A stretch of 64,000 nucleotides of DNA. It comes from Trypanosoma brucei. Taxonomy: Eukaryota. The DNA lies in the NCBI GenBank assembly GCA_000002445.1, contig CP000068.1, positions 1,544,199 to 1,608,198 of the forward strand. Reading direction: 5' to 3'. The notes under the pieces were generated by a model that was not told where the DNA came from, did no database searches, and saw only the letters and a list, made by a program, of their open reading frames with translations. Every line of letters starts with the position of its first letter. Position 1 is the stretch's first letter. Below are positions 7,270 to 64,000 of the stretch, piece after piece. A program made the translations under genes and the position numbers.

Positions 7270-8748
7270 AATTCTTAAAGTTGTTAAGCTAGAGGAAAAA
7301 CTGCAAGCAAAAAGGGACTTTAATTACAGCTGAAAGAACCGTTCCCTCTTTAACTTTGCACTCTTTCTTTTCTGCGTTACAATCGCATTTTGTTTTGTCG
7401 CAATCTTTCTCTTCGACGGCTGTGAAAACCTCGGCTTTTTTATCCCCGTCTTTCTTATCGTCTTTTTGTCTGGTTTTTCGCTTTGTTTGAGCTTTTCCTC
7501 TGAGCCTGATAACTGAGCTTTTTCCGCTGCTTCTTTGCCGAGATAATATGCTAATACGGTTACACCATCAGCTGTCCCTGCCAATTCAAAGGGAGTCTTT
7601 TTTATTGGCATGTTCCTTATTTTTATGTCAATCCTTGTCTTGTCAATAGTGTCTGTGACTCTTTGCTTGAATATTTCTGGCTTTGCGCCGAAAAACTTGT
7701 GAACAAGCGCTTTCCTTTCGATTGCATCTTTTGGAAGTGGTGTGTCTGGTGATCTTATATCAGTTAGGGTTTCTGCTAACCGGTTTTCAGCTTCCAGTGT
7801 CGACAACGGGCGGTTGTGTGGAGGTGTATATGCAGGTTTCGGGGTACGCCTTAGCTGGCAGATAGCTGCTGCTAGGGCTGTTGGTTTGTACTGGTGCGGC
7901 TTACTGTCGTCGCTGATTTTTGGGCACGCCGTCTGGTCCCCTGTGCTCTTTAGTGCTATCTTCGTTTTTTTGTACGAGTGCGCTTTGTGTTCGACTTTGG
8001 GTAGCAGTGCGTTGGCTTGATTGGCGCCGTCAAAGTCTTGTGATGCCGTGATGCAGGCGCCGGTCGTGTGTGCGGATCCTACCATGGCTCCGTTTACTTC
8101 TCCTTTACTTAGGGACGTCGCTTCTAGGACGTGTCTGCTTGCGGCCGTTGCCGCCAGCGTTATGTGCTCGGTGGTCTGCCATTTGACGTTAGAGCGCTTT
8201 ACGTCGTCTTCTTCGCTGTCTAGGCTGCAATTTTGCGCGGTGTACGAGATTTTGACAGCCGCCTTGCAGCCGTGTATGGTGTTAGTTGAGCCAATTGTGA
8301 GTGGGCTGCCAAGTTTGCTTCCGCTCTCTAAAGTTATTGTTTTGGTTGCTGTATCGTGGTCAGTTAGGTGCACCGCTTCCTGTATTTTTATTATCTCCCG
8401 CGTCGCCGCTACTTGTTCGTTGTGAGCTAGTGTTGCAGAGATTAGCTGTGATACATCTGCCTCGGCGATTGTCGCTAGCGCTTTGAAGGCCACTGCTGTT
8501 ACTGCGTCGTCTGACGAAGCTGCTGCTATTATATATGCCACCGCAGCTTTAACAGCTGTAGTTGCAGCTGATCCGTCGCTCAAATAAGTCGTTTTGATTT
8601 TGTCGTTGATTAATTTAAGATATCTGGCCGTCTGGCCGGGTGTGGATACAGCCTGGCTGGCGGCGTCATCGTCGCCCATGGTGCCCGTTAACTGAGCTGA
8701 TTCCACTAGTATTATTAGTGGCTGTCTCCCTGCGTTGGTGTAAAGCAT
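7270..8748 (-). pseudogene. VSG: VSG-like gene with a B-type N-terminal domain intact over 474 aa; the CTD is frameshifted (a Cys-rich CTD is readable in another frame at 7324-7480).
   Basis: ORF 7324..8748 has the Ala/Thr-rich helical N-terminal domain and conserved Cys. The in-frame C-terminal 80 aa are basic and Cys-free, while the alternate frame gives CDKTKCDCNAEKKECKVKEG. Confidence 0.6.
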
Positions 8749-10024: not shown

Positions 10025-10196
<172 letters not shown>

Positions 10197-18653: not shown

Positions 18654-20099
18654 TTAAATATTTGCTCCTAAGGTCAAAAATGCAAGCAGAATAGGGTCCT
18701 TATGAATGACAAAAGAATTGCTCCATGTGGTGTTTGTTGTTTTCTCTTTTTTTCCTTCTTGATTTTCTGCTGCCTCTCTGTCTTCTGCTGCTTTCCCTTC
18801 CTCACTCAATGTGCACTTTTGGCCGGCTGGCTTATTTTCATCGAATGTGCATCCTGTTTTCTTTCCACATTCAGTTTTATCATCTCCTGCTTTGTTGCAC
18901 TCTTCATCCGCTTTGTTTTGTCTATTTGATTGGGCATCGCCGTCGTTTTTGCTATTTAGTAATGTCGTCATGGCCGGTACTGTGTCTTCTAGCAAATGCG
19001 TAACGGTTAGGTTTAGCATGTGGATTCGTTGGTTTAAAAGCTTAAGTGTATGCTGATGTTTTTCGGCTTCCTGTAGTGTGCTGCCTGCGCTTGTTAGCTC
19101 TTTTACCCATGGGATGCCTTGGAGGCCGTTTTGTAGTTGCGCTGTTTGGTAAGCAACACATGGTCCGTGGGTGCTGGTGGCGTCGCCGCTGCAGCCTCCG
19201 GCTCCGGTGCCTTCGAGGTAGCCCAGTGTATTGTGGAAGTCACGGTTTGTTCCTTTGGATTTTGCCATCCGCGCTGCGAATCGGCTAAGGGCGGCGTTGA
19301 TTGCCGCCGGGCTTAAGCCGAGTGAAGGCTTCTTGGTGTTGCATTTTTCTATGATGGCGTTGAAAAGTGTGGTCGGGTCGGCGTTTGGTGTCCAGTCGTT
19401 ATCTAGTTCGCCCCTGGTCAATTGTTTGCCGCATGCCGTGTTCCCCCTTGCCTCTCCGCTATGTTTGCCGCAAAGACATAATATGTCGAGGGCAATTGAA
19501 TTACCTGCGTGGCTCCCACCTTTTTTGTTGCTGTTGCCGCAGCCGCTAGCCCGGTTCGTGTCTGGCAGCCTTGCATTTTTGCTATTTCCAGTCTCGCCGT
19601 AGAGCGCTTTGGTTAGGGCAGCAGTGACGGCTTCAGCTTTAATTTGCTGCGCCTCATTTTTGGCCGTTTCGCTGATCTGAAATGCGACTTCTGCCGCCTG
19701 GATTAACTTTCGCTTTGCCGCTGTCGTTAGTTGCCGTCGTCGTACTTCTGCATAAGATTTTTTGTCTTGCCCGTGGCTAACCTCTAGCACATTTTTTAGA
19801 AACGCGTATTTGCTAGGTTTGCCGTCCGCCGCTTCTTTCATTGAGGCATTGGAATCACTGTAGTCCTTTTTTAGATCGATCTTGCTTATAAAGTCGGCGT
19901 TTGCAAGAGATATATTTATCACCCCAATTGTGGCTGCTATGTCTTGGGTATCATCGACGGCTGGCACTAGATTGACTTTGCTTTTGGCTAGCGCCGTTAG
20001 TTCGCAGAGAACCTCAAAATCTTCTTGATTCTCTCCCCCACTTATGACTCCATAGACCTGTAGTCTCGCTGTTATCAGAAAGACAACTATTGAAAACAT
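18654..20099 (-). CDS. VSG: VSG, apparently intact (481 aa): signal peptide, A-type N-terminal domain, CTD and hydrophobic tail
   Basis: MFSIVVFLITARLQVYGVISGGENQEDFEVLC ... ALYGETG ... CLCG ... NSFVIHKDPILLAFLTLGANI. Confidence 0.8.
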   Translation of the reverse strand: MFSIVVFLITARLQVYGVISGGENQEDFEVLCELTALAKSKVNLVPAVDDTQDIAATIGVINISLANADFISKIDLKKDYSDSNASMKEAADGKPSKYAFLKNVLEVSHGQDKKSYAEVRRRQLTTAAKRKLIQAAEVAFQISETAKNEAQQIKAEAVTAALTKALYGETGNSKNARLPDTNRASGCGNSNKKGGSHAGNSIALDILCLCGKHSGEARGNTACGKQLTRGELDNDWTPNADPTTLFNAIIEKCNTKKPSLGLSPAAINAALSRFAARMAKSKGTNRDFHNTLGYLEGTGAGGCSGDATSTHGPCVAYQTAQLQNGLQGIPWVKELTSAGSTLQEAEKHQHTLKLLNQRIHMLNLTVTHLLEDTVPAMTTLLNSKNDGDAQSNRQNKADEECNKAGDDKTECGKKTGCTFDENKPAGQKCTLSEEGKAAEDREAAENQEGKKEKTTNTTWSNSFVIHKDPILLAFLTLGANI

Positions 20100-20471: not shown

Positions 20472-20973
20472 CCCTGGCGATGCCGGCCACATCAATGTTG
20501 TGCCAGGGTCCAGTACCCCGTATCATCGAGGGAAGCCAAAAGCTAGCAGCGTTCCTTTCATGGGGAACACTGCTTTGCTCCGACTACGGCATCATACAGC
20601 ACAGGAATCAGCAGCGTCTTGCTCGGACACCATTTTTCATTTGTCTGTCCCTGGACACGTTGCTAGCATGCCATCAGCAGTATCATCCGCACTAAGATGC
20701 TGCTGTCCGGTGATGTGGAACTCCAAAAAAAGGATTGCCAATTGACATCTTTGGGAGAGTCCAGGGTGGGAGGCTTCTCGCCCCATCTGCTGTATTCCGT
20801 TCATATGCGGAAATACAACAAAAATTATAGAGGGTGTGTTAGGATGAATAAAAAAGGGAGACTCTGCCACAGTCGCCAGACCGATAGCATCTCAGGGCTC
20901 TACGGTGATGGCTGATAGCCGCGACAGTGGGGGGAAACTCCCACGAAGGCACGAAGAAAATTCCAAAAAAGAA
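20472..20973 (+). mobile_element. RIME: RIME (ribosomal mobile element), a non-autonomous ingi-family retroposon of ~502 bp
   Basis: It starts ccctggcgatgccggcc. The 3' ~230 bp (20730-20960) are near-identical to the 3' end of the ingi fragment at 61180-61410. It ends in an A-rich tail and is flanked by a 12-bp direct repeat. Confidence 0.8.
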
Positions 20974-20985: not shown

Positions 20986-22584
20986 CCGTCCTTTGCGCTG
21001 ATTCCGCCAGGTAAATCGCTGTGTTCTCATTGGCCATGTTCTCGGCCATTTCGTAGATGTCTGTTATTAATACTGAAGCAACGTCCTCGTAACCTTGGTT
21101 TTTGATTGTCTGATTAGCTTGGGTTGCAGTTTTATTGTTGCGCAGCTGCTGGCGCCAGCATCGTTGCAGTGACTTGAATGGGTTGACTTTTAACTACGCG
21201 TAGATTTTGGGACAGACACTGAGGCTGTTCAGGTTCTGGCCGCTGCGTGCGTGTGAGTGGAATGATAAAAATGCTGCTTTGGCTGCTGGTCTAATGTTCT
21301 GCTCTATTTTGTGGTTGCTGACCCAAAAGATGTGGTAATTCTTATTTCTGGATTTTTCTTGAAGTATAAACGTTACACTACGAGTTACAAGATGTGTTTG
21401 TTATGTACAGGCCTTCTGTTGTTGAACTTTTCGCTCGACTATGTGCCTAGCTCTGGTGCTTCCTCCTGTGTAGTAAGTTAATCTAGAAGCTAAAGTTTTG
21501 AGATATGTGCAAAGCATTCGTTTGCGTGGGTGGTCGGCATATTTCTTTATTTCGCGAAAAAGTCTAATTTGTACGTAGAGAAGACAGCTGTTCTGTTCCT
21601 GCACTCCGGTAAGAAACATTCGTAGATCGATCGTATAACGTGTAAGGCATTTCGAGTAAAGAGAAAATAGAAGGGATACTACCGCGCGGTTGTATCAAAA
21701 AATATATATTAAATAAAGTACGGAGTAGAGTTGAGGAATTTTCACCTTAACATCTAATTTATAGCATGATATATATATTTATATATAAATTATCTAACAT
21801 TTGTAGTCAGTATAGACTTGTAGAAAAGTTCAACTGCTGTTGTACTGGTTCTTCTGCAATAACGATATAAAGCTGACGTTTCACCCTTGCGCACAGCCTT
21901 GAGAATTTAGTACCATCTTCCTATATTATTCTCTCTCTTTCCCTCCTCCTCATAAATTTCTGGCTTGAATGTACTTGTTACTTTTGTATTTGCCCCATAT
22001 AGTTCTTCAATCAAACTTCACCATGTATTTTTATATGAATCAGCCGTTACCTTAATAGGATAAAAGTTTTTTTCAATGATTTAGTATGGGAGCGGTGGAG
22101 TATCATTACAAACTTTCTGTGCTCCACAAATGTTATCTTCGGTCTCCAATGTGTGGGTTCTTATCATTCAATTATTCCTCTTCCTTTAGTCATTCTCCGC
22201 AGGCTCTGCTGTTTTTAATACCGCGGATAACGTAAAGACATCACTTGTCGTGCACACTGCACTCTGCGTCTCAATAATTCTCCACTACATCGTCCCCTAG
22301 TATATAATGGAACAAAGAACCATATGTGTGTTTTAAACTGTGCATATTCCATATTTCTTCATTCCATATCACTTTATGCCTTTCTTCCTTACCTTTAATA
22401 TTCTTCGCTCTGTTCTACTTACTGTTTCATTTACTTACATCCAATATACCATTTATATTTTACAGCGCTTCTATTTTAACTATCCATTTCATCTCAACCA
22501 CAACTGTTATTAAAACATTAGTGTACTCACACCCTCAGCACATTCAATCATTATCATCACCATTTCTCTCTCTTATTAAAATAT

Positions 22585-22640
22585 TTGTATATGCACACTC
22601 ACAACACTCTCCTATCATCATCATTATTGTTATTTTTGCT
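22585..22640 (-). repeat. 70-bp repeat (single)
   Basis: gtatatgcacactcacaacactctcctatcatcatcattattgtta. Confidence 0.75.
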
Positions 22641-26961: not shown

Positions 26962-28467
26962 TCAAAAAGCTTTTTTATCTTTTGGAATATCACCTTTTGC
27001 TAAAACAAAATCCTCAGGAGTTTTTGCTAGGCCACACTTATCTGTTGTTGCTCCTGCAGCTCCCTCTTCTGTTCCTGCTGTCTGGGCTGCTTGTTGTTCT
27101 ATCGCTTTTACGGGATCTAATGAGCATTTTTTGTTTATGTCAGTGGTATTCTCGTTCCATTTGCAGGGGGATTTGCAGGTGTTGTTGCTGGTAAGCTTGT
27201 TGCACTCTCCATCGCTGATTTCCATGTTCACAGTTTTGCCTGGCGCAGCTTGCCCGTGGGCCGTCTGTAAGTGGCCTTTGATGATTTTTGCTATTTCCCC
27301 TTCCCTGCTTAATTTTCTGGCCTGTTCGGCAAGTGCTTTGAGCGCTGCTTTCGTGCTTTCTGCTTGCACTATTCTACTTTCCCTGTCTGCAAGGTCGGTT
27401 GCTATGCTGTGCGGTATTGTCAGCCATGGTGTATGGGGTGGTATTGAGCCGTTGTTGTCGGCGTATCCAGTGAATTTGACGCAGCGGCCGCTGCCCTGAG
27501 CACCTGTGCAGCCGGTTTTGGTTGCCCCAAGGTAGCCGGTACCGCTGTTCGTGGTTATGAGTGCCACGATTTCCTCGATCGCCTGCCTCAGCTCGTTTTC
27601 TTTTAGCTGCCGTGGCGGTATTTTGCCACACAGCTTTGTTATTTTTCCTGTGTTCGATGGTGTGTCTGGGCTGCCGGTTGCCCACCGGTCGGCTTTAGCC
27701 ACCGCCGGTGTGCACACGTAGTCGGCTTGGCTGTCTGTTTCAGGCGCACATACGCAGCTTAGCGCACCCATGAGGGAATTTGTTCGGGTTCCTGAGCTGC
27801 CGGTCGTGCAGGCTGTTTGGCGGTCGCTGCCCGAGCTTGCCCCGTATATGCTTTGGTAGTCCGCCGTGTCGACGTCCTTCGAGCCGTCGCCAGTTACCGC
27901 TTCTGTTAGCTTCTGTTTGAGCGTCTTACCTTTTAGCGAAGGTAGCTGGGCTGGCGCCGCCGGAGATTTTGCTAGTGCGGCCGCCGCGCTTGCCAAGTTT
28001 ATCATACGCGGCCTTATAGTGTCTTTTACGTCTTCAGGCAAGCTTTCAAACGTTATTTTGTCTTCTGCCTTTGTTCGGTCCGCCTTATAAAGACTTCTTA
28101 TTGCTTCCTTCCAGTCCAACCAGTATTCTTCCCAGTCATCACCGTGTTGGTCCTTCGGTGGTAGCTCGTCCTGCCAGGCGTTTTTTTCACCTGTTTTCCA
28201 GAACACTTGCTTCCATGCTTTTGGTGCCAAACTCATATTTAGTTTGATGATGTCTTTGAAGTCTTGGTTTTTTAAGTTCGGTTCCTCTGGAATTGTAAGG
28301 TCAATACGAGCCAGCTTTGTTAATTTGCAGAGACCGTCGAACACTGGTCGGTTTTGGCCACCTTCTATGTTGGTTGCTTTACCAAGTTTGGTAATACTGA
28401 GAACTATGAATGCTACGGCTATTATGCAGCCATTAACTGTTCGCTTTTGCTCTTGACTTCTCTGCAT
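26962..28467 (-). CDS. VSG: VSG ORF of 501 aa with signal peptide, N-terminal domain and CTD, but no hydrophobic GPI-signal tail in frame (ends ..DIPKDKKAF)
   Basis: MQRSQEQKRTVNGCIIAVAFIVLSITKLGKATNIEGGQNRPVFDGLC ..LNMSLAPKAW.. CTD CNKLTSNNTCKSPCKWNENTTDINKKC. Confidence 0.7.
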   Translation of the reverse strand: MQRSQEQKRTVNGCIIAVAFIVLSITKLGKATNIEGGQNRPVFDGLCKLTKLARIDLTIPEEPNLKNQDFKDIIKLNMSLAPKAWKQVFWKTGEKNAWQDELPPKDQHGDDWEEYWLDWKEAIRSLYKADRTKAEDKITFESLPEDVKDTIRPRMINLASAAAALAKSPAAPAQLPSLKGKTLKQKLTEAVTGDGSKDVDTADYQSIYGASSGSDRQTACTTGSSGTRTNSLMGALSCVCAPETDSQADYVCTPAVAKADRWATGSPDTPSNTGKITKLCGKIPPRQLKENELRQAIEEIVALITTNSGTGYLGATKTGCTGAQGSGRCVKFTGYADNNGSIPPHTPWLTIPHSIATDLADRESRIVQAESTKAALKALAEQARKLSREGEIAKIIKGHLQTAHGQAAPGKTVNMEISDGECNKLTSNNTCKSPCKWNENTTDINKKCSLDPVKAIEQQAAQTAGTEEGAAGATTDKCGLAKTPEDFVLAKGDIPKDKKAF

Positions 28468-29034
28468 CTGCGGTGCCGTATGCTATTACTAGCCTGCCCC
28501 TTTTTGTAGAGAAACGAGGAACTAGTTGGTTACACATTTTCAATGCCTATGCTTAGTGAAAAAACTGCCGTTCACTGTGGCTTTGTGAAACAGGTTTTTG
28601 TGGGTTGTGCTTTCTTCGTCTTATAAAGTCTAATTAACTTCTGTTTACTGACTTTTATGCATCTATAGGAGAAACATTTAGCCTTGTCGCTCTGACTTTA
28701 GTATGTTTATATGCCATGAAGATTGCAGCCTTTGAAGGTTTTGTTTAAAAAACTCTTCTTCTGCTCATATAATGCTTATGCTCCACGCATTACTTAAAAA
28801 ATAGTGTGACAAAAAGCGGCATCCCTGTTTCTCCCTTTTCAGTTTCTATTCTTGTAAGAAGAACACTTGGCTTAGCTAAAGACTTTGTAGTTTCATTTCC
28901 AACCACTGCTATTCCATATATGAAAATATTGTGGCTATCTTCTTTGCAACTATGGGCTCTTACTTGGAAAAAACACACACATTGCTGTACCTCCAATATT
29001 CAAATTATATGTATTTTTATTTTTTGTATCTGCT

Positions 29035-29345
29035 TTTATTATAATATTCGTATATACACACACTCACAACACTCTCCTATTTTTATTATTATTATTATTA
29101 TTATTACTGCTCTTATTATAATATTTGTATATACACACACTCACAACACTCTCCTATTATTATCATTATTATTATTATCATTATTATTATTACTGCTTTT
29201 ATTATAATATTTGTATATACACACACTCACAACACTCTCCTATTTTTATTATTATTATTATTATTATTACTGCTTTTATTATAATATTCGTGTATACACA
29301 CTCTCACAACACTTTCCTGTTATTATTATTATTGTCATCATTATT
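29035..29345 (-). repeat. 70-bp repeat array of ~4 units
   Basis: Four tandem copies of attcgtatatacacacactcacaacactctcct + (att)n. Confidence 0.9.
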
Positions 29346-29487
29346 CTTTCTAAACCATTACAAAAAAATTAGAATAACACTTATTTTAATACGCTTTCAC
29401 AAATACTTTACGCCTACATTATACTTTCATACCAAATTTATATATTTTAAGATTTTTAAAATTTTTTATTGAATTTTTTTACAGAAA

Positions 29488-29503
29488 ATGTTAAAATATA
29501 TCA
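29488..29503 (-). promoter_or_regulatory. VSG 3'UTR 16-mer (atgttaaaatatatca), belonging to the orphan VSG tail fragment
   Basis: Near-exact 16-mer. Confidence 0.7.
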
Positions 29504-29574
29504 AACTTTAGAAAATATTTTTAAAATTTTCTCAAAATAACAAAATGTTGCAAATTTAGAATATCAAGACGATA

Positions 29575-29830
29575 AAATTAAAAATTCCACTAAACTCACA
29601 AAAGCAGCAACGATACTCGGAGCTAATTTCCTATTGACAAGGATACTGAAAGAGAGTCACTCAGGTTTGGGAAGTTTGCCTTCTTTGTCTGTGAAAGTTA
29701 TCCAACCACATTTACAAGGGGCACAAGCTGGCAGTCCTTCATTCTTGTTTTTCACCAGATGTCTGATCCTGGTGGCTAGAGAAATTAGTTTGCAAGTCTT
29801 TCCCTCACGATTCTTGGCTTGCCTTTTCTA
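29575..29830 (-). pseudogene. VSG: Orphan VSG 3'-end fragment (degenerate GPI-signal/CTD tail with an in-frame stop)
   Basis: Reverse-complement translation gives ..NLSDSLSVSLSIGN*LRVSLLLL*, a decayed NSFVINK..LLLAFLLF-type tail with its own 16-mer 3'UTR. Confidence 0.4.
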
Positions 29831-30341
29831 GTTCTTGTGTCAACTCCTTTTTCAACTCACATTTGTCTCTGACACCGTTAAAAACACACCTCTGACAGTT
29901 GAACGGCTTTAGACGTCTGGTGCCAGCGACAGATTGTGCCACTGAGGGTTAATTGCTTATTGTTATAATCTGCTGGTGACAAATGTTTCCCTATTTCCTT
30001 AATTTTCCCTTTAAAAGCAAATCGGTTTGCGCACCGAAATTGCCGCGCGCCAGCTTTAAAAAAAACAGCGTGCAGCCCCTTAGTCTACGCACCAGAGTTT
30101 TTTTAAAAAACAAATTAAGCACCACTTCACGTGCGGAAGGCAAATAAGCGTTAGGGTCCGCGTCAAGAAAGAGCCGCTGCATTACATTAAAAACATGGAA
30201 AACTATAAAACAAACCAAAAAAAAAGAAAAATTAAAACCTTAAAAAACTCAATAGATAAAAGGGGAATTTTTGAGCCATCAACAAAAAATTTACAGAATC
30301 AGAATTTTTACAAACAAACGAAAACTCTCCGCTGAATTTAG

Positions 30342-30357
30342 GTGTTAAAATATATCA
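30342..30357 (-). promoter_or_regulatory. VSG 3'UTR 16-mer, exact
   Basis: gtgttaaaatatatca, about 35 bp 3' of the stop at 30392. Confidence 0.85.
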
Positions 30358-30391
30358 AACAGCAAATGTTTTACGTATAGGGGAAATTCTT

Positions 30392-31972
30392 TTAGAAAAC
30401 CATGGCCACAAATGCAGCAGAAACCACGCTGAGGGCGAATTGTTTGTTTACTAGAATAGAGGAATCTTTGCATTTTTCTTCAATCCAGCCGCAATTGGCT
30501 TTTTCACCCGGTTTCTGACCCTCGTTTTCCTTTTCACAGTTTGCTTTATCTTTGTGCTTTTTGCACCTATCTTATGGTGTTGATGTCTCTCCAGTTTGAC
30601 TTTGTGTTACAGGGGCGCCATTTGCTGTGGCTTTTGTTGCATTATATTTGCACCTTTTTGTACCATCGCTTTCTTTTTCATAACTGCATTCATTTTCTTT
30701 GTTGCATATCTCTTCCGTAACTATTTGATTGCATTTGTTAGTCGGCTGAGTCCCCTGGTCGCCTTTGCGGTTGACATTGTCGCTGCTCGTCTGACCGGCT
30801 GTTGGAGGTGCGGTCTTCTGTAGCAGTGCTGCCGCATAGGCTTTATTTTTGGCCACAGCAAGTTGCTGTTCGAGTGCCGTCGCTTCTGCGATTGCTTTTT
30901 CTTGCTGGCGCAGATCGTCGTGGAGAGCTAGCAACTTCTGGGCCCAGGGGATCGCCGCAAAAGCCTTGGTGGGCGTCCCGTCATAGCCAGCGTACTTTAT
31001 GCATATTCCTTGTGTTTTGTCGCCGTTGCAGCTGCTTCCTGTTTTGAGAGCCCCCATGTAGGCGTCGCCGCCTACTCTTCTTATTAGGTTTTTGATCTTG
31101 GTTATGAGACCCATTAATAGGCTGGATGTTAGGTGCGTTTTTGCTGGGCCGGCGCAGTGCTTTACTATTTCCTCGAATCCGTCCTTGGTCATGGCGTTGG
31201 TGCTCGATGTCCACTTGTGAGTATCTGCCTGGTTTCTTGCGCACACTTTTTCTGCTTGGGCGTTGTCTTGGCCGCAGATACAGTAAATAGCGCCTGCGAT
31301 TGTTGTTGTTTTAGCTTCGCTGCCTAGCCCGACGCATATCGCTTCCCTTGCTTGTGTGTTCAGACCGTCATAGTTTCTCGTTGGCTCAAAGTCTGGTGTC
31401 TCCTCTTGTTTGACCCCGTATATAGCTTCGTTTAGCGCTGCTTTAATGGTTTCCGGTGTGTGCTTTTTTCCTAAGCTTTGTTTGTTGGCGATCCGCGTCG
31501 CTAGGAATTGTGCTTCTGCTGCTATTTGTGCTACACTTACTTTGGCCCCTGCCTTTTCTATTGGGTTTAAGGTTTCAAAGCCGCTGTTTTTTATCTCTAG
31601 TGTCGTCCCTTCCGCTCCTAGTTTTTCTGCTGCGGCGGCCCACTTTGGCCAACTTTTTTTCCAGTAGCCAGGGTCTGTTGTGCCTGCCGGAAGCTCTTTT
31701 ATCCACTCTTTTTTCGCCCCGTCCTTACTGAACCGCTTCTTCCACGACTCATCTGCTAAGCTCATGTTAAGGGCTAGAACGGCCCCTTCTAGGGCAGCTG
31801 TCTGATCCGGAAACTGGTTAATGGTTATGTCCGATCGTGAAATATCGACAATAGCGCACAATGCACCAAATTCCTGCTCGTTTGCTCCTGCCGGTATGTT
31901 GCCTCTTGCTTGCTCTGCCGTTAGTGCTAAGGCCAGCAGCGCCGTCACTGCCACCGTCGCTTTGGGCGTCAT
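30392..31972 (-). pseudogene. VSG: VSG, otherwise intact, with a single in-frame TAA at 30572-30574; the 466-aa ORF is followed in frame by 59 more residues ending in a perfect GPI signal.
   Basis: ORF 30572..31972 is MTPKATVAVTALLALALTAEQARG... Past the stop, the same frame reads [59 protein letters not shown]. Confidence 0.8.
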
Positions 31973-53759: not shown

Positions 53760-55280
53760 ATAGCAAATTCATAATGTGGTGACAATCAGAGACATTTCAT
53801 ATTTACATGTAAACTGGAATCCTTGCCATCTTTTCTATCCCATTTGCAACCATCTTTGCATTCCTCTTCTTTTTGTTATCGGAGCACTTTTTGCCTTCTG
53901 CATTTGTTCCTGCAGCTCCTGTTCCTGCTTGGGTTGTCTGCTCTTCTCCATCTTTGGGTTTGCAGTGGGCAACTTTATCCTCTGTAGTGATATCCCATTT
54001 GCAGTTATTGTCCACTGTGCAGGTGGTGTTTGTTTTGTGTTGGGTACAATCTTTGCCGTCTTTTGTTTGTGGTTGCGCAGCCGTATTGATTTGCTTGTCG
54101 TGATCCTGTTTTTGGGCGAGGGCTGCATACACTACAGCCTGTGCCGCTGATCCCTTTCTTTTTATTTATTCGTTGACTCTTTCGAGTTCTTTGACTGCAT
54201 CCTCGTGGCATCGCAGATTGTCTTCTAGCGTACTAAGCGTTTTGAGCCAGCCGACGGCTTCGAGTGGGGACATCGCTGCAGCCGCCAGGGCAGTATACTT
54301 GACGCATATTCCGGCATTGTTGCTGCCTGTACATTGCCCGGTTGTGTGGGCACCTATGTATCCCGCGGCGCTGTCGTATTTGAATTTTGCGGCGATGGCT
54401 TGTATTCTGTGCTTGAGGTCGGTACTTGTGACTGAGTGTTGCCTTTTGCGGTTGTACATGTTGGCTATTTCTTTTTGTAGTGCTGCGGCGGGGTTGCTGT
54501 TGGCGCCGCTCCAGTCCTCGTTTGGTGCCGTCCCTGTGCAGGCCGCCGCTGTGTTGGCTGCGTTGGTTGAGTCTTTGGCGCAGAGGCAGACTAAGACGGC
54601 TAGTATAGTTTTGGCTTTGCCGCCTGATTCGTCGCCTACACAAGCGGCCTGTCTGCTCCCCCCATAGATGAAGTAAAAAGGTTTGTTACCATTGATCCGT
54701 CGGCCGGCTCTTCATTTGCGCCATATATAGCCTGGTTAAATTGCTTTTGCATGTCCGCCTCGTTCATTATTTTTTGCTGCAACCCTTCGTCTTTTGCTTT
54801 AGAGATTAGGTGCTGCGCCTCCTCCGCTATTGGCTCTAGGGCTAGGCGCAAGGTGGCCCTCTGTTTCTCGCTTAACATGTTAATTTTGTGTTTTTTCTCC
54901 AGGGTTGTTCTTGCATCTTGCTTGAGCAGTTTGCCTGCTTGTTTCTTCCACGCTTTCCACTTTCCTTCCCAGTCTGTGCCCTTCGGCAACTTCGCCGCGT
55001 GATAATCACGGGTGTCGTCTTTTCCTTGTTCTTTCCGGAACAATTCTATCCAGGCCTGTTCGGAGGCTGTCATGTTTAACTCTATTATTGAGTCCGCTGT
55101 CGGTGAGAGCGGCGGTTTCGTGGTGGTGAGCTTGGCCCTTGTTCCCCCTAGCTCAACTATCGTGCACAACGCCTCCCGCACTTGTACGTTGGCATCGTCT
55201 TGGAGCGCTGCCTTTGCTACGCTGCAGTATGCTGCTGCTGCTGCTGAAAGAAGTAAAATAAAGTTTAGTTTGTCTTTCAT
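53760..55280 (-). pseudogene. VSG: VSG pseudogene in three frames (CTD 53803..54132, mid 54166..54459, N-terminal 54636..55280)
   Basis: N-terminal MKDKLNFILLLSAAAAAYCSVAKA..ELNMTASEQAW. CTD CTVDNNCKWDITTEDKVAHCKPKDG. The tail is KMARIPVYM*. Confidence 0.65.
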
Positions 55281-56560: not shown

Positions 56561-57559
56561 GAGTATGAACTACAACACTCTTGGTTTCTCAGAATAATTA
56601 TTTGTTATATTTGTTGTTGTATCCTCTTGAACAGATGCTGAGCTTAGTCATATTAAATGTAATAGCAATGCTAATAGCAAAATCGTTATGACACCAAATT
56701 TCATTCCCTGATCTGCATTTAAAAGTTAAGAGGGTTATTAAAAAGGCTTTATAAAAGAAATGAGTTTCTGCACTAAAATGTTTATTTAGTGAAACTGTGT
56801 TTACATAAGTTATGCCTTGATATTGTTATGATATAGGTGTTGAATGGCGAATGCTCATTGTCCGGGACTTATATTTCAATTGAAATTAATACTTTTCTTT
56901 TGCAAATTAGCTTTAGGAAGAAGAGTTACCGAAAAATTCTAGATGAATTCTACTGTTGTTTAGCATTCCTCACATTTACCCTTTATGCACTGTTACGGGG
57001 ATTGTAGCAGCCAGTTGTACTGATTATTTCATTTATATTAGGACGTTAACGATGTTTTTGTGATAACTACGCCAACATCTGGCTCCGTCATAGGAATCCT
57101 TTTCGCTTATATTTATGAATCACAGCTAATATTGATACTAGAACCATATCTTTAATATTAAATATTCATTTCTGTGTGAAATGTAAATAATTAACATCCC
57201 TTGTATCATTTTCTGCTGCGACTCTTTGTGGCGTTGCGCATTCTATTATCTTACTATGCATTATTGTACCTTTTTTGTGTTATGTCGCTTTTTCAGTGGC
57301 AGATGTAGCGACTCCATTTGGTCTATATGCTGGACTTTACCTCTACCTTATTATCTCCTACATCATCTACATAGTTATGATGGCCATGGGCATGTTAGTG
57401 TTTGCAGCTGCTAATTTTCCATTTTCCTTCTCCTCACTTTTTTGCGTTTCCTTTAATAACATTCTTTGTTCACTCTCGCTCTCTTACTCAATTAGTGCAA
57501 TTACATACTTTCCGTTCTTTTAATAGGCTATACCTTGTCCGGGTAATTCGTTTTCTCTA

Positions 57560-57690
57560 CACTCTTATTATAATTTTAGTATATGCACACTCACAACACT
57601 CTTCTATCATTATTATTATTAACACTTTTACGCTAATATTAGCAAATACACTCACAACACAATTTTTTCATTATTATTTTTTTGTTACAC
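57560..57690 (-). repeat. 70-bp repeats (~2 units, one degenerate)
   Basis: agtatatgcacactcacaacactcttctatcattattattatt ... aaatacactcacaacacaa. Confidence 0.8.
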
Positions 57691-57853: not shown

Positions 57854-57868
57854 GTGTAAAATGTATCA
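57854..57868 (-). promoter_or_regulatory. VSG 3'UTR 16-mer variant (gtgtaaaatgtatca)
   Basis: Position 3' of the VSG fragment at 57990. Confidence 0.45.
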
Positions 57869-57989
57869 AATGTTTCTCCGATTAAATAGAAATTTCATAA
57901 ATTTTCACAAAGTTGAGAAAAATCATTAAAATTATTAAAATTATAAAATTCTAGCAGGCTCACAAACACAGCAGCAATTAGACACATTT

Positions 57990-58500
57990 GTTTTTTTACA
58001 AGAAAACCGAGTCTTTCATTTATTGTCTTCCCATTTTCAACCATATTTGCACTGACCTTGGTTTGTCCCTGCTGAAAAAGAAGCTTTGATTGCTACTTCT
58101 GCCCCGTTTGACCTTCGCTGCCACGCATTTGTCATTTTTGAATTTGAACCAATCATCTGTTTTGCATTTATCTTTTTCTGTTATTGTTTTGCATTTGTCG
58201 CCAAAGTCTTTTGTTCCAGTGTGCATGGCTACTGCTTCCTGTGCATGTATTTTTTCAGAAACGTTCTTTCCACGGCAGTAACAGAGCACAGTTATGCCTT
58301 TTATAGTTCCGCAAATATCGAGCGGTGTTTCATCAATTCTCACCTTGTTTATTGTGAGTTTAATCTTGGTTTCCTCTATTGCGTTTGTTATTGTCGTTTT
58401 CAATTCGCTCGGACTGCTCCCGAAATACTTGTTAACAACTGCCTTTTTGATGTTTGCATCAGCTGGAGGTTAGCTCCCCGATTGTATCAGTTGCTTTAGG
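57990..58500 (-). pseudogene. VSG: VSG C-terminal fragment (CTD plus frameshifted GPI signal), truncated at its 5' side where the ingi fragment begins
   Basis: ORF 58020..58403 has Cys-rich CTD motifs (CYCRGKNVSEKIHAQEAVAMHTGTKDFGDKCKTITEKDKCKTDDW). An alternate frame gives LGFLVKKQMCLIAAVFV. Confidence 0.55.
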
Positions 58501-58890
58501 GCACTTATTAGCTAGTTGTTTGTCTCCAGGTTGCTCATGGCTTCCCTGTGAGGGCCACGTACTGTGGAATTTCTGTTTTTCTTAAATTGCAAAGTAAGTG
58601 GTCGAGAGGAAACGCAAGATGGACTTCAGACTACTGCAGATAACAGCCATCTCAGCTTCTACATGGGGGCCAAGACGACAATACTGAGAGCTTTTTATCT
58701 AGCACTCGTACAGGCACACACCATGTATGGCATTGAGGTATGGTACTGGGACGCTTAGGAACGAAGTCGCGACCTCCTTGCATCAGCACAACACAAAGCC
58801 AGTCGCATCATAGCTGGTATACTGCATGGGACACGCAAAGAGGTCTCTCTGCTGGAAGCAAACCTCCTGCCACTCAAGACGGCCACTCTT

Positions 58891-59829
58891 GTGCGCAGCA
58901 TGAAATTCATGCTGATGTGTGAGTCACGAGGCGGATGTTTGCGGCGCAGTGCTGAGGAAGTATACCACAGCAAACACCCAGTCAGAGCCCTACATTCCCG
59001 CATCATGCGGTCCTACCCCCACCTCCGCATTGAGCCACGCGAGCACCCACTAGAGACATCGACGCTCCGCCACAGCTGCCGACCTCTATTTCACACGCAG
59101 ATAAAGCCTGTGTGCGCTGATGACCCTGACGATGTCAAAAGGGAGGCTCATGAAAAGTGGATTGCACGGCATTTTGCACGGAGGGGGAAGGAGCCACCGC
59201 GACGAGAGCACTACGAATTGTGGACTGATGGATCCGTGTCCCTCGGTGAGAAGTCCGGAGCAGCTGCCCTGCTCTATAGAAACAACACGCTGATTCGTGC
59301 ACCAGAGACCGGAGCAGGGGAACTCTCATGCAGTTACAGAGCGGAATGCGTAGCATTAAAAATAGGACTGCAACGGCTGCTGAAATGGCTCCTGGCATAC
59401 AGAAGCACACCGAGCAGGTTGTCTATCTTCTCTGACTCGCTGTCAATGTTAACAGCACTGCAGACAGGCCCCCTAGCCGTAACGGACCCAATTCTAAGAC
59501 GACTATGGAGGCTTCTGCTTCAAGTTCAGAGAAGGAAGGTGCGTATCCGACTGCAATTTGTGTTTGGCCATTGTGGCGTGAAACGGAATGAGGTTTGCGA
59601 TGACATGGCCAAAAAGGCCACTGATTTACCACAGTTGCGAGACACATGGATCCCCGACATCATTGCTTATGCGAAGCGAGTGCTTAGGTCGGAAGAAGTC
59701 TATGAAAACACTCATAGGTTTGGTATCGCGGGCAACCACTTTCCAACAAAACATAAAGAAGAACTGACGAGGGAAGAAGAAACGGCACTGGCACGCTTTC
59801 GGGTTGGGTCTTCAAGGCACTATGGATAG
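58891..59829 (+). CDS. ingi ORF segment with the RNase H domain
   Basis: The ORF terminates in an in-frame TAG at 59827-59829, directly followed in the same frame by the zinc-finger ORF. Confidence 0.65.
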   Translation: MRSMKFMLMCESRGGCLRRSAEEVYHSKHPVRALHSRIMRSYPHLRIEPREHPLETSTLRHSCRPLFHTQIKPVCADDPDDVKREAHEKWIARHFARRGKEPPRREHYELWTDGSVSLGEKSGAAALLYRNNTLIRAPETGAGELSCSYRAECVALKIGLQRLLKWLLAYRSTPSRLSIFSDSLSMLTALQTGPLAVTDPILRRLWRLLLQVQRRKVRIRLQFVFGHCGVKRNEVCDDMAKKATDLPQLRDTWIPDIIAYAKRVLRSEEVYENTHRFGIAGNHFPTKHKEELTREEETALARFRVGSSRHYG

Positions 59830-61140
59830 ATGTTGCGAAAGATCAACCCGAGTGTGCCTCCACAGTGCCGATGGTGTAACCCGCAACATGCAGCGATAGG
59901 GCCAACAATACAAGTACAAGCAGCCCCAACTGTTGCGACACGCACTCTTCAGAGGACCTCCGAACCGACCAAATGTACGGAATGTGATGACACATACCAG
60001 TGCCGCTCGAGTGCTGTAACGCACATGGTAAACAAACATGGCTTTGTGCGAGCTGATGCCCTCCGGAGGATCAAATACGGCGATGCAACACCTGCAGTGG
60101 ATATCCCCCCGGAGCCCCCTCCAGTGGCGGCGATCGTTCCTCTACCATCGAGCACACGAGTCCATATGAGACCGCAGGTGCTTTACTGTATCCTCTGTGC
60201 TTTCAAATTCGCAGTGCCAGGCCGACTATTACACCACCTTAGAACAATACATGGCATAAGCAGCGGTAGTTGCCGCGTGAAAAGGGGGCGAGAAAACGAG
60301 GACTCATTGCAAGGAGATGGTAGCGTCCCAGCAGCGCCAGCCCCTCAGGATACACGGAAGCTGCCGTTTCAATGTGACCTGTGCGTGGTGAGCTTCGGTA
60401 CACGTTCTTCCCTGTCACTACACAAGAAATTCAAACATAAGAGCATAGTGACGGAGGACGGTACCGTGGTGGTGGTGCAATTCCCTCGTAAGCGTGCCCG
60501 TGAGGGAAACGTTGACGTCCCGGGGAAGGGAGAGGTGCAGTGTGGTGTGTGCCAAAAAGTGCTCAGTTGCAGGGACTCCCTCATCCGACACTGTAAGGCT
60601 TTCCACAAAGGTGAGGGAGTCGAGCTTAAATGCAGCAAAAGCACAAAATTGTGTGCCACTGATTCCCCGCATACAAACACATCCATGTTGGTGTGCCCGA
60701 CATGCGGAAGGCAGTGTGCTAGCAAAACTGGCCTCACCATACATCAAAAGAAGATGCGCGGTATGAAGGTAGAGCACGCTGCTACCAGCCAACGCGGCCA
60801 CTGCGAAGAAACGTCGCTGCACTTGATGAGCTGTCCCGGTTTGAAGGATTTACGTGTCAGGTTTGCGGTAGAAGGTGAGTGTGTGTGTGTGCAGGATGTA
60901 TGTTTTTCTAAGAGGCTGGCGCAGTTTCTCATTGCGGCTGAACGGAGCCGGCTGCAGGTGAAGTCTTCACCTAATGTAACAGTCATACAACCCACTCTCC
61001 CTTCTACAACTTCCCCCCTTATTGCCGAGTGTGGAGCTAGCAGGAAAAGCACCGGACGCAGGAATAGTCCAGACACCCTCAGAGACAGAGGGGGTATGCA
61101 ATCAACAAGCAACAGAAACAGAAAGAGGGAGAGAGAATAA
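59830..61140 (+). CDS. ingi ORF C-terminal segment with C2H2 zinc fingers (L1Tc/ingi-type nucleic-acid chaperone region)
   Basis: CTECDDTYQCRSSAVTHMVNKHG; LYCILCAFKFAVPGRLLHHLRTIHG; FQCDLCVVSFGTRSSLSLHKKFKHK; CGVCQKVLSCRDSLIRHCKAFHKG; CPTCGRQCASKTGLTIHQKKMRG. Confidence 0.65.
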   Translation: MLRKINPSVPPQCRWCNPQHAAIGPTIQVQAAPTVATRTLQRTSEPTKCTECDDTYQCRSSAVTHMVNKHGFVRADALRRIKYGDATPAVDIPPEPPPVAAIVPLPSSTRVHMRPQVLYCILCAFKFAVPGRLLHHLRTIHGISSGSCRVKRGRENEDSLQGDGSVPAAPAPQDTRKLPFQCDLCVVSFGTRSSLSLHKKFKHKSIVTEDGTVVVVQFPRKRAREGNVDVPGKGEVQCGVCQKVLSCRDSLIRHCKAFHKGEGVELKCSKSTKLCATDSPHTNTSMLVCPTCGRQCASKTGLTIHQKKMRGMKVEHAATSQRGHCEETSLHLMSCPGLKDLRVRFAVEGECVCVQDVCFSKRLAQFLIAAERSRLQVKSSPNVTVIQPTLPSTTSPLIAECGASRKSTGRRNSPDTLRDRGGMQSTSNRNRKRERE

Positions 61141-62199
61141 TAAACGAATAACAAAAATCAAAACAAAAGGATTGCTAATTGACATCTTTGGGAGAGTCTG
61201 GGGTGTGGGGACTTCTCGCCCCATCTGCTGTATTCCGTTCAAATGCGGAGCTACAACAAAAAATTATAGAGGGTGTGTTAGGCTTAATAAAAAAACGGAG
61301 ACTCTGCCACAGTCGCCAGACCGATAGCATCTCAGGGCTCTACGGTGATGGCTGATGGCCGCGCCAGTGGGGGGAAACGCTCACCAAGGCACGAAGAAAA
61401 TTCCAAAAAAAAAATAGAGTTGAATTAACTACTGTTGCGATTCTATCCATGGAAGTGGCTTCTCATGGTTGCTTTGGTAGAGACAGTTTGAAAAATTGAA
61501 TCACTACATTTTTGTTTCTTTTTCTTTACTCTTTGATCTCGAAACTGTCATTTGATTCCCCTTATTGGGCGCATGGCTTTGCTCGGCTATCATCGCTATT
61601 GTTACGCAAATAACGTTTGGCCTCAGCCGCCAGTTTGAATGCCTTTTGATCTTTTTTTAACTTACACTTATTTACGGTTTGGATTATAATCGCAGAAATA
61701 TAATCAAAACTACCTACCCTTCCCCCACATTTCTTATCGGTGTCTATCGCTACTTCCATAGAATAGACTTTAATACTCTATAAGTCGATTCTATTTGAAG
61801 TTATAGGTTATTAACGGTTGCTGTATTCGCATTAAAACTTCAGCTAAGTCATCTACAGTGTTCATCCTGTGCGAAATATGTAGAGCAATCTCTTCCTCCT
61901 TTTGTATTATATCACAATATACTTTGTAGTCTAGACTATTCTATGGTTGTATTCTGTTATTTTCGTTATTAAACATATTGAGTGGCTTCTGTGGATTAAA
62001 TGCCGACCCGTAGGCTTGTCCACTGGGCACTGTATTTCTTCATTATCGCCCTCTTCAACATTTTCTTGTGTATAATTGTACACATCGTCATGTGTTTGAA
62101 GTTGCACATATTACATCTCCAACTATCTCCAGCATTTACTCCAACCCCACACTTTAAATTGCTTTAACTACTTCTATTTTGATTACCTATTTAGGTCTC

Positions 62200-62640
<441 letters not shown>

Positions 62641-62929: not shown

Positions 62930-64000
62930 ATTTTTTATTGACGAGAGAACTACCATTTCGACACATTTCTTTATCTTTATTAGGTTATCCATTTTTACCC
63001 TTTACTCATCCACAAACATGGCTAGATTTTTCAACATTTTCTTCTTACAAGTTGCTCTGTCATTGTGAACAGTATAGTTAACAGTATTTGTTCCTTCAGT
63101 TTGAGTTTGGGATACAAGGACACCATTTGTTGTGGACTTTGTTTCATTAAATTTGCACTTTGTTTTGCCTTCAGCTTCCTTTTATTGTAACTACTGTAAC
63201 GCTTGTTTTTGCATTCTGTTGCATCTTTAATTTTATTGCAGTTGTTTTCTACCGCCTTAGTATTTCTTCCTTTTTTGCTTTGTAAAGTTCTTTGCTAAGG
63301 CTGGCGACTTTAATCGCGGCATGTAGCTCATAGTAGCTAATGAGTTCGGCTAGTTCGTCGCCTTGCTTTATCATACAGAGCTTTGCTGCGCTTTTGCGAC
63401 CTGCAGCACTGCTGGGAAGGTCTTCCGTATCCACCATGTCGTTTAGCTCTTTGTCTGCTGCAGGGGAGTCGTCGCCAAATTACTGCCTTCACTTCTGTGT
63501 TGACCGCTGGCTTGGTTGCATCTCTATTGGTTAGCAAAACACTTTTGATCACTTCTGTCAACGGTCGGTGGTCCGATTGCTTGGCTGTCTCATTTGTGAA
63601 TTCACTGTCTTTGCTCTCCGGCAACGATTTTTGTTCTGCAGCTACATCTGCTCAAGCTGCCACTTTGCCTTCAAGCGCGTCTTTGTTGCACATTCTCGGC
63701 TCGGAGTTCCCTGTCTGTAGAGATAAGTAGCCACCTATGATTTCTATAGCAGCTCTGGGGCCATGTGCACCTTCCGTGAAGCCGCTGGCGGCATGCGCGA
63801 CCAGTAGATTGCACTTGTTTGTGTCAGAAGCTGGTGTGTGCGAGCCGCTTCTGTCGCCTACCACGGCGAAAACACTACCTTTAAAACCGGTGATATCTAA
63901 AAAATTGTTTGTTGCGGCGGCAACCTCGAGGGAAGTTAGTTTGGTATTGCAGTTGTATAGGCCAAGGTTGCCGAGCGATTTCGCCGCTGCCGTAGAATTC
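62930..64000 (-). pseudogene. VSG: VSG pseudogene, partial (it continues beyond the window end), with multiple frameshifts
   Basis: GPI-tail coding (caattttttattgacgagagaactacc) is at ~62930-62960. ORFs 63249..63437, 63337..63624 and 63652..63864 are in different frames, with N-terminal-domain-like GSHTPASDTNKCNLLVAHAASGFTEGAHG. Confidence 0.5.

What the first reader, a model, noticed from the sequence alone, without database searches (positions are those of the whole stretch)
57990..61415. 5'-truncated ingi (RNase H plus C2H2 fingers) inserted antisense into a VSG, truncating it; the ingi ORF has an in-frame TAG
The VSG C-terminal fragment at 57990-58500 ends where retroelement sequence starts. 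The element, on the + strand, encodes the RT C-terminus in shifted frames, an RNase H domain and an L1Tc/ingi-type C2H2 zinc-finger tail, then the RIME-homologous 3' region and a10. A single TAG at 59827-59829 separates RNase H from the zinc-finger ORF in the same frame. Only ~760 bp separate the element's end from the next 70-bp repeat, so the VSG's N-terminal domain is missing. This suggests the insertion was accompanied by, or followed by, a deletion.
Basis: partly seen in the sequence, partly recalled or inferred. Interest (0 to 1): 0.55.

Follow-up and report, generated by a model that had tools for sequence, protein, structure and literature searches.

The report
Dead truncated ingi in VSG pseudogene
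This is a broken, 5'-truncated copy of the trypanosome retrotransposon ingi sitting backwards in a decayed surface-antigen (VSG) pseudogene near the end of Trypanosoma brucei TREU927 chromosome 5; it is ordinary, and a published catalogue already lists it.

Summary
The window is T. brucei TREU927 chromosome 5, 1544199-1608198. Window 58586-61414 (+) is the 3' 2.8 kb of a Tbingi (positions 2439-5255 of a 5255-bp reference, 95% identity), ending in A10. A published dataset already lists it as a 'Partial INGI' (NC_007278:1602810-1605612, 5' truncated, 3' intact).

- **What the copy keeps.** It starts about 6 codons after the end of the RT domain, so no RT or endonuclease remains. It keeps RNase H, the C2H2 fingers and the RIME-type 3' end.
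- **The TAG.** The TAG at 59827-59829 is TGG (Trp) in the reference copy, so it is a plain nonsense mutation. A second in-frame TAG (58756-58758, TCG in the reference) and a 1-bp deletion (58682) lie upstream.
- **The VSG fragment.** It lies on the minus strand and reaches 58589, not 58500, flush with the ingi. It covers only positions 302-492 of a 497-position VSG family profile and is itself a pseudogene.
- **The right flank.** The 775 bp at 61415-62189 shows no VSG similarity, and there is no target-site duplication. A RIME in the same window has a perfect one.

Insertion plus loss of about 0.9 kb or more of target DNA is therefore supported. The order of the two events is unresolved. Interest is low.

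The parts
57946..58589 (-). 3' fragment of a VSG pseudogene: the last part of the N-terminal domain, the hinge, the C-terminal domain and the GPI-signal tail. It has in-frame stops at 58512-58514 and 58470-58472, and frame shifts in the C-terminal domain.
   Evidence: An HMM built from 9 related VSGs hits this strand at profile positions 302-492 of 497 with E=8e-52, starting at 58589. tblastn with 14 VSG relatives gives E down to 6e-34. phmmer hits are ~490-524-aa VSGs, two of which carry Pfam Trypan_glycop_C. Three-frame translation shows the stops and the ...CLIAAVFVSLLEF tail in another frame.
58552..58585 (+). 34 nt directly upstream of the truncated ingi that resemble the Tbingi/RIME endonuclease target: a 22-nt 'ingi4' signature plus the 12 nt that would normally be duplicated (TGTTTTTCTTAA, 58574-58585).
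   Evidence: 7 of 10 specified positions match, and this was the best score in a 90-position scan around the junction. Elements with an intact 5' end score >=7 in 15 of 29 cases, against 3.4% of window positions. The signature is taken from PMC3820030. This is suggestive only.
58586..61414 (+). 5'-truncated, non-functional Tbingi non-LTR retrotransposon (ingi nt 2439-5255), including its poly(A).
   Evidence: Colinear alignment to the 5255-bp ingi at 95% identity. Listed as 'Partial INGI', NC_007278:1602810-1605612, element 2465-5256, 5' truncated and 3' ok, with a 100-nt upstream sequence identical to window 58512-58611 (PMC4660242 Supplementary File 1).
58586..58611 (+). First 26 nt of the element. 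They are in register with ingi but only 17/26 identical, against ~95% for the rest.
   Evidence: Pairwise alignment. The chance of >=17/26 in-register matches is about 2e-4. The published BLAST-based catalogue starts the element at 58612.
58682..58682 (+). Site of a 1-bp deletion relative to the reference ingi, causing a frameshift.
   Evidence: Global alignment indel list. tblastn shows the frame change between 58681 and 58666.
58756..58758 (+). In-frame TAG. The reference codon is TCG (Ser).
59209..59619 (+). RNase H domain.
   Evidence: Pfam PF00075, E=2.9e-10, residues 107-243 of ORF 58891-59829.
59827..59829 (+). In-frame TAG between the RNase H and zinc-finger regions. The reference codon is TGG (Trp), so this is a G-to-A nonsense substitution.
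   Evidence: P0001 reads ...SSRHYGWMFRKINP... where the window reads ...SSRHYG*MLRKINP.... Codon comparison. The T. grayi homologue has Cys at this position.
59974..60753 (+). C2H2 zinc-finger region: four canonical fingers at 59974-60606 plus a fifth Pfam-matched finger at 60691-60753.
   Evidence: Pfam zf-C2H2_4 and zf-C2H2. Motif scan.
61165..61414 (+). RIME-homologous 3' end of ingi, with the A10 tail at 61405-61414.
   Evidence: ingi 5006-5254 aligns both here and to the RIME at 20725-20973. Direct identity between the two window copies is 90.5%. Sequence read.
61415..62189 (.). Right flank: AT-rich, apparently non-coding, unique in the window. It has no VSG N-terminal-domain similarity and no copy of the expected TSD.
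   Evidence: GC 35-39%. Only stop-ridden frames. No Pfam hit in any of the six frames. No VSG hit by blastx, tblastn or HMM. No repeat within the window. No TSD.
62190..62600 (-). 70-bp-type repeat that marks the upstream edge of this VSG cassette. It contains a perfect (TAT/ATT)113 tract at 62247-62585.
   Evidence: TRF. 62196-62263 is 89.7% identical to the 70-bp repeat at 57554-57621.

Best explanation
A Tbingi non-LTR retrotransposon copy lies on the + strand, antisense to a silent array VSG on the minus strand, in the right subtelomere of T. brucei TREU927 chromosome 5. Only ingi nt ~2439-5255 are present. These cover the post-RT linker, RNase H, the C2H2 fingers, the RIME-type 3' end and the poly(A). 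The copy has no endonuclease, no RT domain and no 5' promoter/ribozyme signature, so it cannot move or make a functional protein.

The VSG keeps only its last ~190 profile positions. About 300 codons of N-terminal domain, the start codon and probably some upstream sequence are gone, and the poly(A) now abuts non-coding DNA 775 bp from the cassette's 70-bp repeat.

Shown: the identity and extent of both parts, the lesions, the missing VSG N-terminal domain, and the missing TSD.

Inferred: the element entered by target-primed reverse transcription at a site inside the VSG. The 34 nt left of the junction resemble the ingi endonuclease target. The DNA on the poly(A) side (right TSD copy plus VSG N-terminal domain) was then lost, either during the same event or in a later deletion starting in or at the A-tail. 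The locus has no function beyond being one more damaged cassette in the silent VSG archive.
For: Source and prior listing:
- Two window VSG ORFs are identical to TREU927 proteins AAZ11584 and AAZ11583 on a 1,608,198-bp contig.
- The published table row NC_007278:1602810-1605612, 'Partial INGI', has an upstream sequence identical to window 58512-58611.

Element identity:
- 95% identity over 2.8 kb to a 5255-bp ingi whose ends match the two halves of a RIME.
- The best protein hits are T. brucei ingi RT and 'Tbingi protein'.
- RNase H and C2H2 Pfam hits.

Truncation: RVT_1 ends at P0001 residue 312 and the copy begins at about residue 318.

Lesions: the TGG-to-TAG and TCG-to-TAG changes and the 1-bp deletion.

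VSG fragment: family HMM E=8e-52, positions 302-492 of 497, starting at 58589. The right flank gives E>=0.8.

TSD: nothing beyond a chance 6-mer is shared, whereas the RIME control has a perfect 14-mer.

Left junction: it scores 7/10 on the ingi4 target signature. Genuine 5' ends reach this in 52% of cases, against a 3.4% background (signature from PMC3820030).

Context: about two-thirds of array VSGs are pseudogenes (PMC3467770). The same catalogue holds 76 'Partial INGI' rows, although entries such as this one appear twice.
Against: - No empty-site allele or intact paralogue could be retrieved. The pre-insertion sequence is therefore unknown, and the order of events (one step or two) is untested.
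- The signature match at the left junction is only a likelihood ratio of about 15. It could be chance, and two candidate junction positions were examined.
- If the deletion came later, its left breakpoint must have fallen in or at the short A-tail, which is a coincidence.
- The first 26 nt of the element are unusually diverged (65% identity), which the simple model does not explain.
- dN/dS between this copy and the reference copy is 0.25. Most of the 5% divergence therefore reflects different active source lineages, not decay in place, and the age of the insertion cannot be read from it.
Confidence: 0.85

Rival explanations
1. A full-length ingi first inserted in the non-coding region upstream of the VSG, at 61414/61415. 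The RIME at 20472-20973 sits upstream of its VSG in just this way. One later deletion then removed ingi nt 1-2438, the left TSD and target signature, the rest of the upstream region and the VSG N-terminal domain, joining ingi nt 2439 to VSG codon ~300.
For: - A single deletion with two arbitrary breakpoints explains the 5' truncation, the missing TSD and the missing N-terminal domain together.
- The right flank looks like ordinary non-coding upstream DNA.
- In this window the distance from a VSG start to its 70-bp repeat is typically ~0.55-1.9 kb (coordinates), so 775 bp of surviving upstream sequence fits.
- The 12 nt after the A-tail fit the weak TSD pattern as well as the controls do, 2 of 3 positions when the first A is counted.
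Against: Under this model the 7/10 match to the ingi target signature ending exactly at 58585 has to be a coincidence, with a background of about 1-3%. The cluster of mismatches in the first 26 nt of the element also remains unexplained.
Confidence: 0.3
2. The VSG was already only a C-terminal fragment before the ingi arrived. The retroelement then landed at, or was recombined onto, the fragment's edge, so it did not cause the truncation.
For: The VSG fragment carries independent lesions: two stops and C-terminal-domain frame shifts. About two-thirds of array VSGs are pseudogenes, some of them through deletions (PMC3467770).
Against: - A clean insertion into a pre-existing junction should have left a 12-bp TSD, and none is present.
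- The end of the VSG homology and the start of the ingi homology coincide to within 4 nt. That is unlikely if the two truncations were unrelated.
Confidence: 0.07
3. The in-frame TAG is a functional feature, either programmed read-through or a deliberate split into two products, and not damage.
For: The TAG is the only interruption in 749 codons spanning RNase H and the zinc fingers, and an ATG follows it directly. dN/dS against another copy is 0.25.
Against: - The same codon is TGG in the T. b. equiperdum copy and Cys in the T. grayi homologue. The following Met belongs to the native ...GWM... sequence.
- Potentially functional ingi are described as encoding one continuous protein (PMC2323293).
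- This copy lacks EN and RT and has a second TAG and a frameshift upstream, so nothing here could be selected for retrotransposition.
Confidence: 0.02

Closest known systems
Tbingi (ingi4 subclade) non-LTR retrotransposon of Trypanosoma brucei, and its deletion derivative RIME
   Same: 95% nucleotide identity over 2.8 kb to a 5255-bp ingi. The domain order is the same (RNase H, then the C2H2 fingers), the 3' ~250 bp is shared with RIME, and there is a short poly(A) tail. The left flank resembles the ingi4 endonuclease target.
   Different: It lacks nt 1-2438: the 79-bp 5' signature, the AP-endonuclease and the whole RVT_1 domain. It has no 12-bp TSD. It carries two nonsense codons and a frameshift.
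'Partial INGI' entry NC_007278:1602810-1605612 in Khan et al. 2015 (Data Brief 5:818, PMC4660242, Supplementary File 1)
   Same: It is the same element. The strand matches, the 3' end matches (window 61414 = chr5 1605612), and the listed 100-nt upstream sequence equals window 58512-58611.
   Different: The catalogue starts the element at ingi nt 2465 (window 58612). In-register homology at lower identity continues a further 26 nt to 58586. The catalogue says nothing about the VSG, the TSD or the lesions.
Mammalian L1 5'-truncated insertions and L1 insertion-associated target deletions (compared from general knowledge, not tested here)
   Same: 5' truncation with an intact poly(A) end, no TSD, and loss of about 1 kb of target DNA next to the insertion.
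   Different: It belongs to a different clade with a different target signature. Whether the deletion here happened during insertion is not known.
Silent-array VSG pseudogenes and fragments of the T. brucei subtelomeric archive
   Same: Minus-strand cassette bounded by 70-bp repeats, a C-terminal domain with a GPI-signal tail, in-frame stops and frameshifts.
   Different: Here the loss of the N-terminal domain coincides with a retroelement junction.

Membership tests
Tbingi (ingi/RIME) retroposon | High nucleotide identity to the ~5.25-kb ingi consensus or to a full-length copy | tested here: met
   94.4% by BLAST and 95.0% by global alignment over ingi nt 2439-5254.
Tbingi (ingi/RIME) retroposon | The terminal ~250 bp is shared with the 3' half of RIME, followed by an A-rich tail | tested here: met
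   61165-61414 is 90.5% identical to the RIME 3' half at 20725-20973. A10 lies at 61405-61414.
Tbingi (ingi/RIME) retroposon | A single ORF encoding AP-endonuclease, RT, RNase H and C2H2 fingers | tested here: not met
   Only RNase H and the C2H2 region are present. EN and RVT_1 are absent because of the 5' truncation. The remaining ORF is broken by two TAGs and a frameshift. This is the expected state of a truncated dead copy, and it does not argue against ingi origin.
Tbingi (ingi/RIME) retroposon | 79-bp 5' signature (promoter/ribozyme hallmark) | tested here: not met
   ingi nt 1-2438 are absent here. Within the window only nt 1-250 occur elsewhere, in the RIME at 20473-20720.
Tbingi (ingi/RIME) retroposon | 12-bp target-site duplication | tested here: not met
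   The longest shared exact word between the flanks is 6 nt, which is the mode of shuffled controls. The RIME control gives a perfect 14-mer. The candidate left copy TGTTTTTCTTAA has no partner after the poly(A).
Tbingi (ingi/RIME) retroposon | ingi4 target signature AxxxxxxxTxxxGTxGGxTxxx^xTxTxxTxxxxx upstream of the element | tested here: inconclusive
   7/10 for the 34-mer ending at 58585. Genuine 5' ends reach >=7 in 15/29 cases, against a 3.4% background.
SLACS/CZAR site-specific retroposons | Best homology to SLACS/CZAR proteins and insertion in spliced-leader RNA genes | tested here: not met
   All significant protein hits are ingi-clade. The flanks are a VSG and a 70-bp repeat, not SL-RNA genes.
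Variant surface glycoprotein (VSG) gene | C-terminal domain with conserved cysteines and a GPI-signal tail, homologous to known VSGs | tested here: met
   phmmer hits to VSGs down to E=3e-21, two of which carry Pfam Trypan_glycop_C. Family HMM E=8e-52. The tail ...CLIAAVFVSLLEF is seen in another frame. Pfam itself does not hit the degraded fragment directly.
Variant surface glycoprotein (VSG) gene | N-terminal domain with signal peptide, contiguous with the C-terminal domain | tested here: not met
   Profile positions 1-301 have no counterpart on either side of the ingi.

The most novel reading that the evidence does not exclude
The truncation of the VSG and of the ingi came from one aberrant target-primed reverse-transcription event. 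The ingi endonuclease cut at the signature inside the VSG (58552-58585). The priming strand then lost about 1 kb or more before or during cDNA synthesis. The result was a 5'-truncated insertion with a target-site deletion and no TSD. This would be an 'ingi insertion-mediated deletion', analogous to those described for human L1, and it would make ingi a direct sculptor of the VSG archive.
Probability: 0.3. Interest if true: 0.3.

Novelty: already known. Interest (0 to 1): 0.08.

Why it matters
It matters little. The locus is one more example of how retroelement insertion and deletion erode cassettes in the silent VSG archive of T. brucei, where most genes are already pseudogenes. Its only wider use is as a documented case with exact breakpoints. 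That case would help anyone studying whether ingi insertions cause target deletions in trypanosome subtelomeres. The in-frame TAG has no implication for ingi biology, because it is a Trp-to-stop mutation in a copy that was already dead.

Tried and rejected
- **Empty-site or orthologous alleles in other strains.** The word-indexed protein search found nothing for the VSG fragment or for the neighbouring VSG ORF 54639-55280. Exact-sequence look-ups of window ORFs and of P0008 found no contig (one search was a coordinate error). No DNA-level search of trypanosome genomes was available.
- **Inverted 5' signature at the 3' end.** I suspected the ingi 3' end (61290-61372) carried an inverted copy of the 5' 79-bp signature. 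Alignment against the real 5' end scored at the shuffle mean, so I rejected the idea.
- **Rfam.** The gathering-threshold scan of the whole window gave 0 hits.
- **The 26-60 nt around the left junction.** No templated source was found elsewhere in the window or in ingi; only short chance or low-complexity words matched.
- **Right flank.** There were no Pfam hits in any of the six frames and no repeat within the window.
- **Bringaud et al. 2004.** The original paper on ingi target sites (Mol Biol Evol 21:520) is not held. I took the signature from PMC3820030 instead.
- **VSG 3'-UTR 16-mer.** It is frequent in the window: 20 matches against 1.3 expected. It was not found within 3 mismatches below this fragment. 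By eye, a copy with one substitution and a 1-nt deletion lies at about 57855-57869.


Full report
**Source of the window.** Two intact minus-strand ORFs in the window (26965-28467 and 18657-20099) are identical to VSG proteins AAZ11584 and AAZ11583 of Trypanosoma brucei brucei TREU927, on a contig of 1,608,198 bp. A published table of ingi/RIME copies in TREU927 (Khan et al. 2015, PMC4660242, Supplementary File 1) has a row for NC_007278 (chromosome 5), 1602810-1605612, plus strand. It reads element positions 2465-5256, 5' end 'tr', 3' end 'ok', 'Partial INGI'. Its 100-nt upstream sequence is identical to window 58512-58611. The window is therefore chr5:1544199-1608198, the right end of the assembly. 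The element under study is already catalogued.

**The retroelement.** The concatenated RNase H and zinc-finger translation finds T. brucei 'reverse transcriptase' (P0001, 93% identity) and 'Tbingi protein' of T. grayi as best hits. The genomic locus of P0001 in T. b. equiperdum (L001) holds a 5255-bp element. It starts with CCCTGGCG and ends in A9. Its first 250 and last 250 nt match the two halves of a 0.5-kb RIME at window 20473-20973, which is the defining architecture of ingi.
- Window 58586-61413 aligns colinearly with nt 2439-5254 of this ingi at 94.4% identity. The global alignment gives 95.0% with nine small indels.
- No other ingi-internal sequence occurs in the window. The missing 5' half is therefore not nearby, although only 2.6 kb of assembly lies to the right.
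- Pfam confirms RNase_H (59209-59619) and C2H2 fingers. Four canonical fingers lie at 59974-60606.
- RVT_1 in P0001 spans residues 70-312 and the window copy begins at about residue 318. No RT domain proper is retained, only the linker after it.
- The first 26 nt (58586-58611) are in register with ingi but only 17/26 identical, with a chance probability of about 2e-4. This is why the BLAST-based catalogue starts the element at 58612.

**The TAG.** From 58683 to 61140 the copy reads in one frame. The TAG at 59827-59829 corresponds to TGG (Trp) in L001 (...SSRHYGWMFRK...), and to Cys in the T. grayi homologue. The ATG after it is the native Met. A second in-frame TAG at 58756-58758 corresponds to TCG (Ser), and a 1-bp deletion at 58682 shifts the frame upstream. 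Potentially functional ingi are described as encoding a single long protein (PMC2323293). The TAG is thus an ordinary nonsense substitution in a copy that was already incapable of retrotransposition. dN/dS between this copy and the L001 copy is 0.25 over 408 codons. Most of their 5% divergence therefore arose in selected source lineages, and in-place decay is modest.

**The VSG fragment.** On the minus strand, phmmer against 1.8 billion representatives returns 14 proteins, with E down to 3e-21. The six I read are 404-524-aa VSGs with the usual C-terminal cysteine pattern and GPI-signal tail. Two of the five scanned carry Pfam Trypan_glycop_C.
- A profile built from nine of them hits the minus strand with E=8e-52 at profile positions 302-492 of 497, and the alignment starts at 58589.
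- tblastn with the individual VSGs gives the same picture.
- The fragment is itself a pseudogene. It has in-frame stops at 58512-58514 and 58470-58472, and its C-terminal domain and hydrophobic tail (...CLIAAVFVSLLEF, ending near 57946) lie in other frames.
- The end of the VSG homology (58589) and the start of the ingi homology (58586) are flush.

**The right flank.** Window 61415-62189 (775 bp) has 35-39% GC, stop-ridden frames and no repeat in the window. It has no Pfam hit in any of the six frames. It shows no similarity to VSGs by blastx, tblastn or the family profile, where E is 0.8 or worse. The 70-bp-type repeat of the cassette begins at about 62190 and contains a perfect 113-unit trinucleotide tract. 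About 300 codons of the VSG N-terminal domain are therefore absent.

**Target-site duplication and target signature.**
- The RIME at 20472-20973 serves as a positive control. It is flanked by a perfect ATCCATTCTTGT(CC) duplication, and its upstream 34 nt match the published ingi4 target signature (PMC3820030) at 8 of 10 positions.
- For the truncated ingi, the two flanks share nothing longer than a 6-mer, which is the mode of shuffled controls.
- The 34-mer ending exactly at 58585 scores 7/10 on the signature, the best of 90 positions scanned.
- Using the upstream sequences of 29 elements with complete 5' ends from the published table, 15 reach 7 or more, against 3.4% of window positions. That is a likelihood ratio of about 15 that the left junction is a genuine endonuclease target.
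- The implied left duplication copy, TGTTTTTCTTAA, has no partner after the poly(A).

**Interpretation.** Three histories remain possible.
- (a) A 5'-truncated insertion within the VSG at 58585/58586, with the poly(A)-side DNA lost in the same event or later. This fits the signature, but a later deletion must then have started at the A-tail.
- (b) A full-length insertion upstream of the VSG at 61414/61415, followed by one deletion that removed the ingi 5' half and the VSG 5' half. This is the most economical in number of events, but it makes the signature match a coincidence.
- (c) A pre-existing VSG fragment. This is disfavoured by the flush junction and the missing duplication.

I could not retrieve an empty site or an intact paralogue, so the order of events is not settled.

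**Verdict.** Partial ingi copies are common: the same table has 76 such rows, although entries such as this one appear twice. About two-thirds of array VSGs are pseudogenes (PMC3467770).

Noticed in passing
window 20472-20973 (+): A complete 0.5-kb RIME lies between VSG ORF 18654-20099 and its 70-bp repeat (~22500-22630). It has a perfect 12-14-bp target-site duplication (ATCCATTCTTGT[CC]) and an 8/10 match to the ingi4 target signature. It looks like a clean, fairly recent insertion. The published table (PMC4660242) mislabels it 'Complete INGI'.
   Followed up: yes
window 62247-62585; also 10062-10196: Perfect trinucleotide tracts sit inside 70-bp-type repeats: 113 uninterrupted TAT/ATT units (339 bp) next to the cassette studied, and 45 units at 10062-10196. 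The first is unusually long and has no interruption at all.
   Followed up: no
window 58586-58611: The first 26 nt of the truncated ingi are 35% diverged from the reference, against ~5% for the rest of the element, and stay in register. This may be a footprint of error-prone joining at the 5' junction. It is unexplained.
   Followed up: partly
window 63995-64000: The window, and with it the chromosome 5 assembly (position 1,608,198), ends in GAATTC inside a minus-strand VSG. The assembly stops at a cloning site, not at a telomere, so anything to the right of the locus is unseen.
   Followed up: no
PMC4660242 Supplementary File 1 (rows for NC_007278): Elements in the published table appear twice, with coordinates offset by multiples of 175,000 bp (for example 27880-30682 and 1602810-1605612, with identical flanks). 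This looks like a chunking artefact and would inflate copy counts taken from that table.
   Followed up: partly
window 7324-8748 (-): A 474-aa ORF is related to the VSG fragment (35% identity over 113 aa) but has no Pfam hit and a non-VSG-like basic C-terminus. It is not in the protein collection and is probably a frameshifted VSG pseudogene.
   Followed up: no
whole window, minus strand: The VSG 3'-UTR 16-mer TGATATATTTTAACAC occurs 20 times at 3 or fewer mismatches, against 1.3 expected. Nearly all copies are on the minus strand, each lying just beyond the low-coordinate end of a VSG ORF. This marks about 17 head-to-tail cassettes in the 64 kb.
   Followed up: partly
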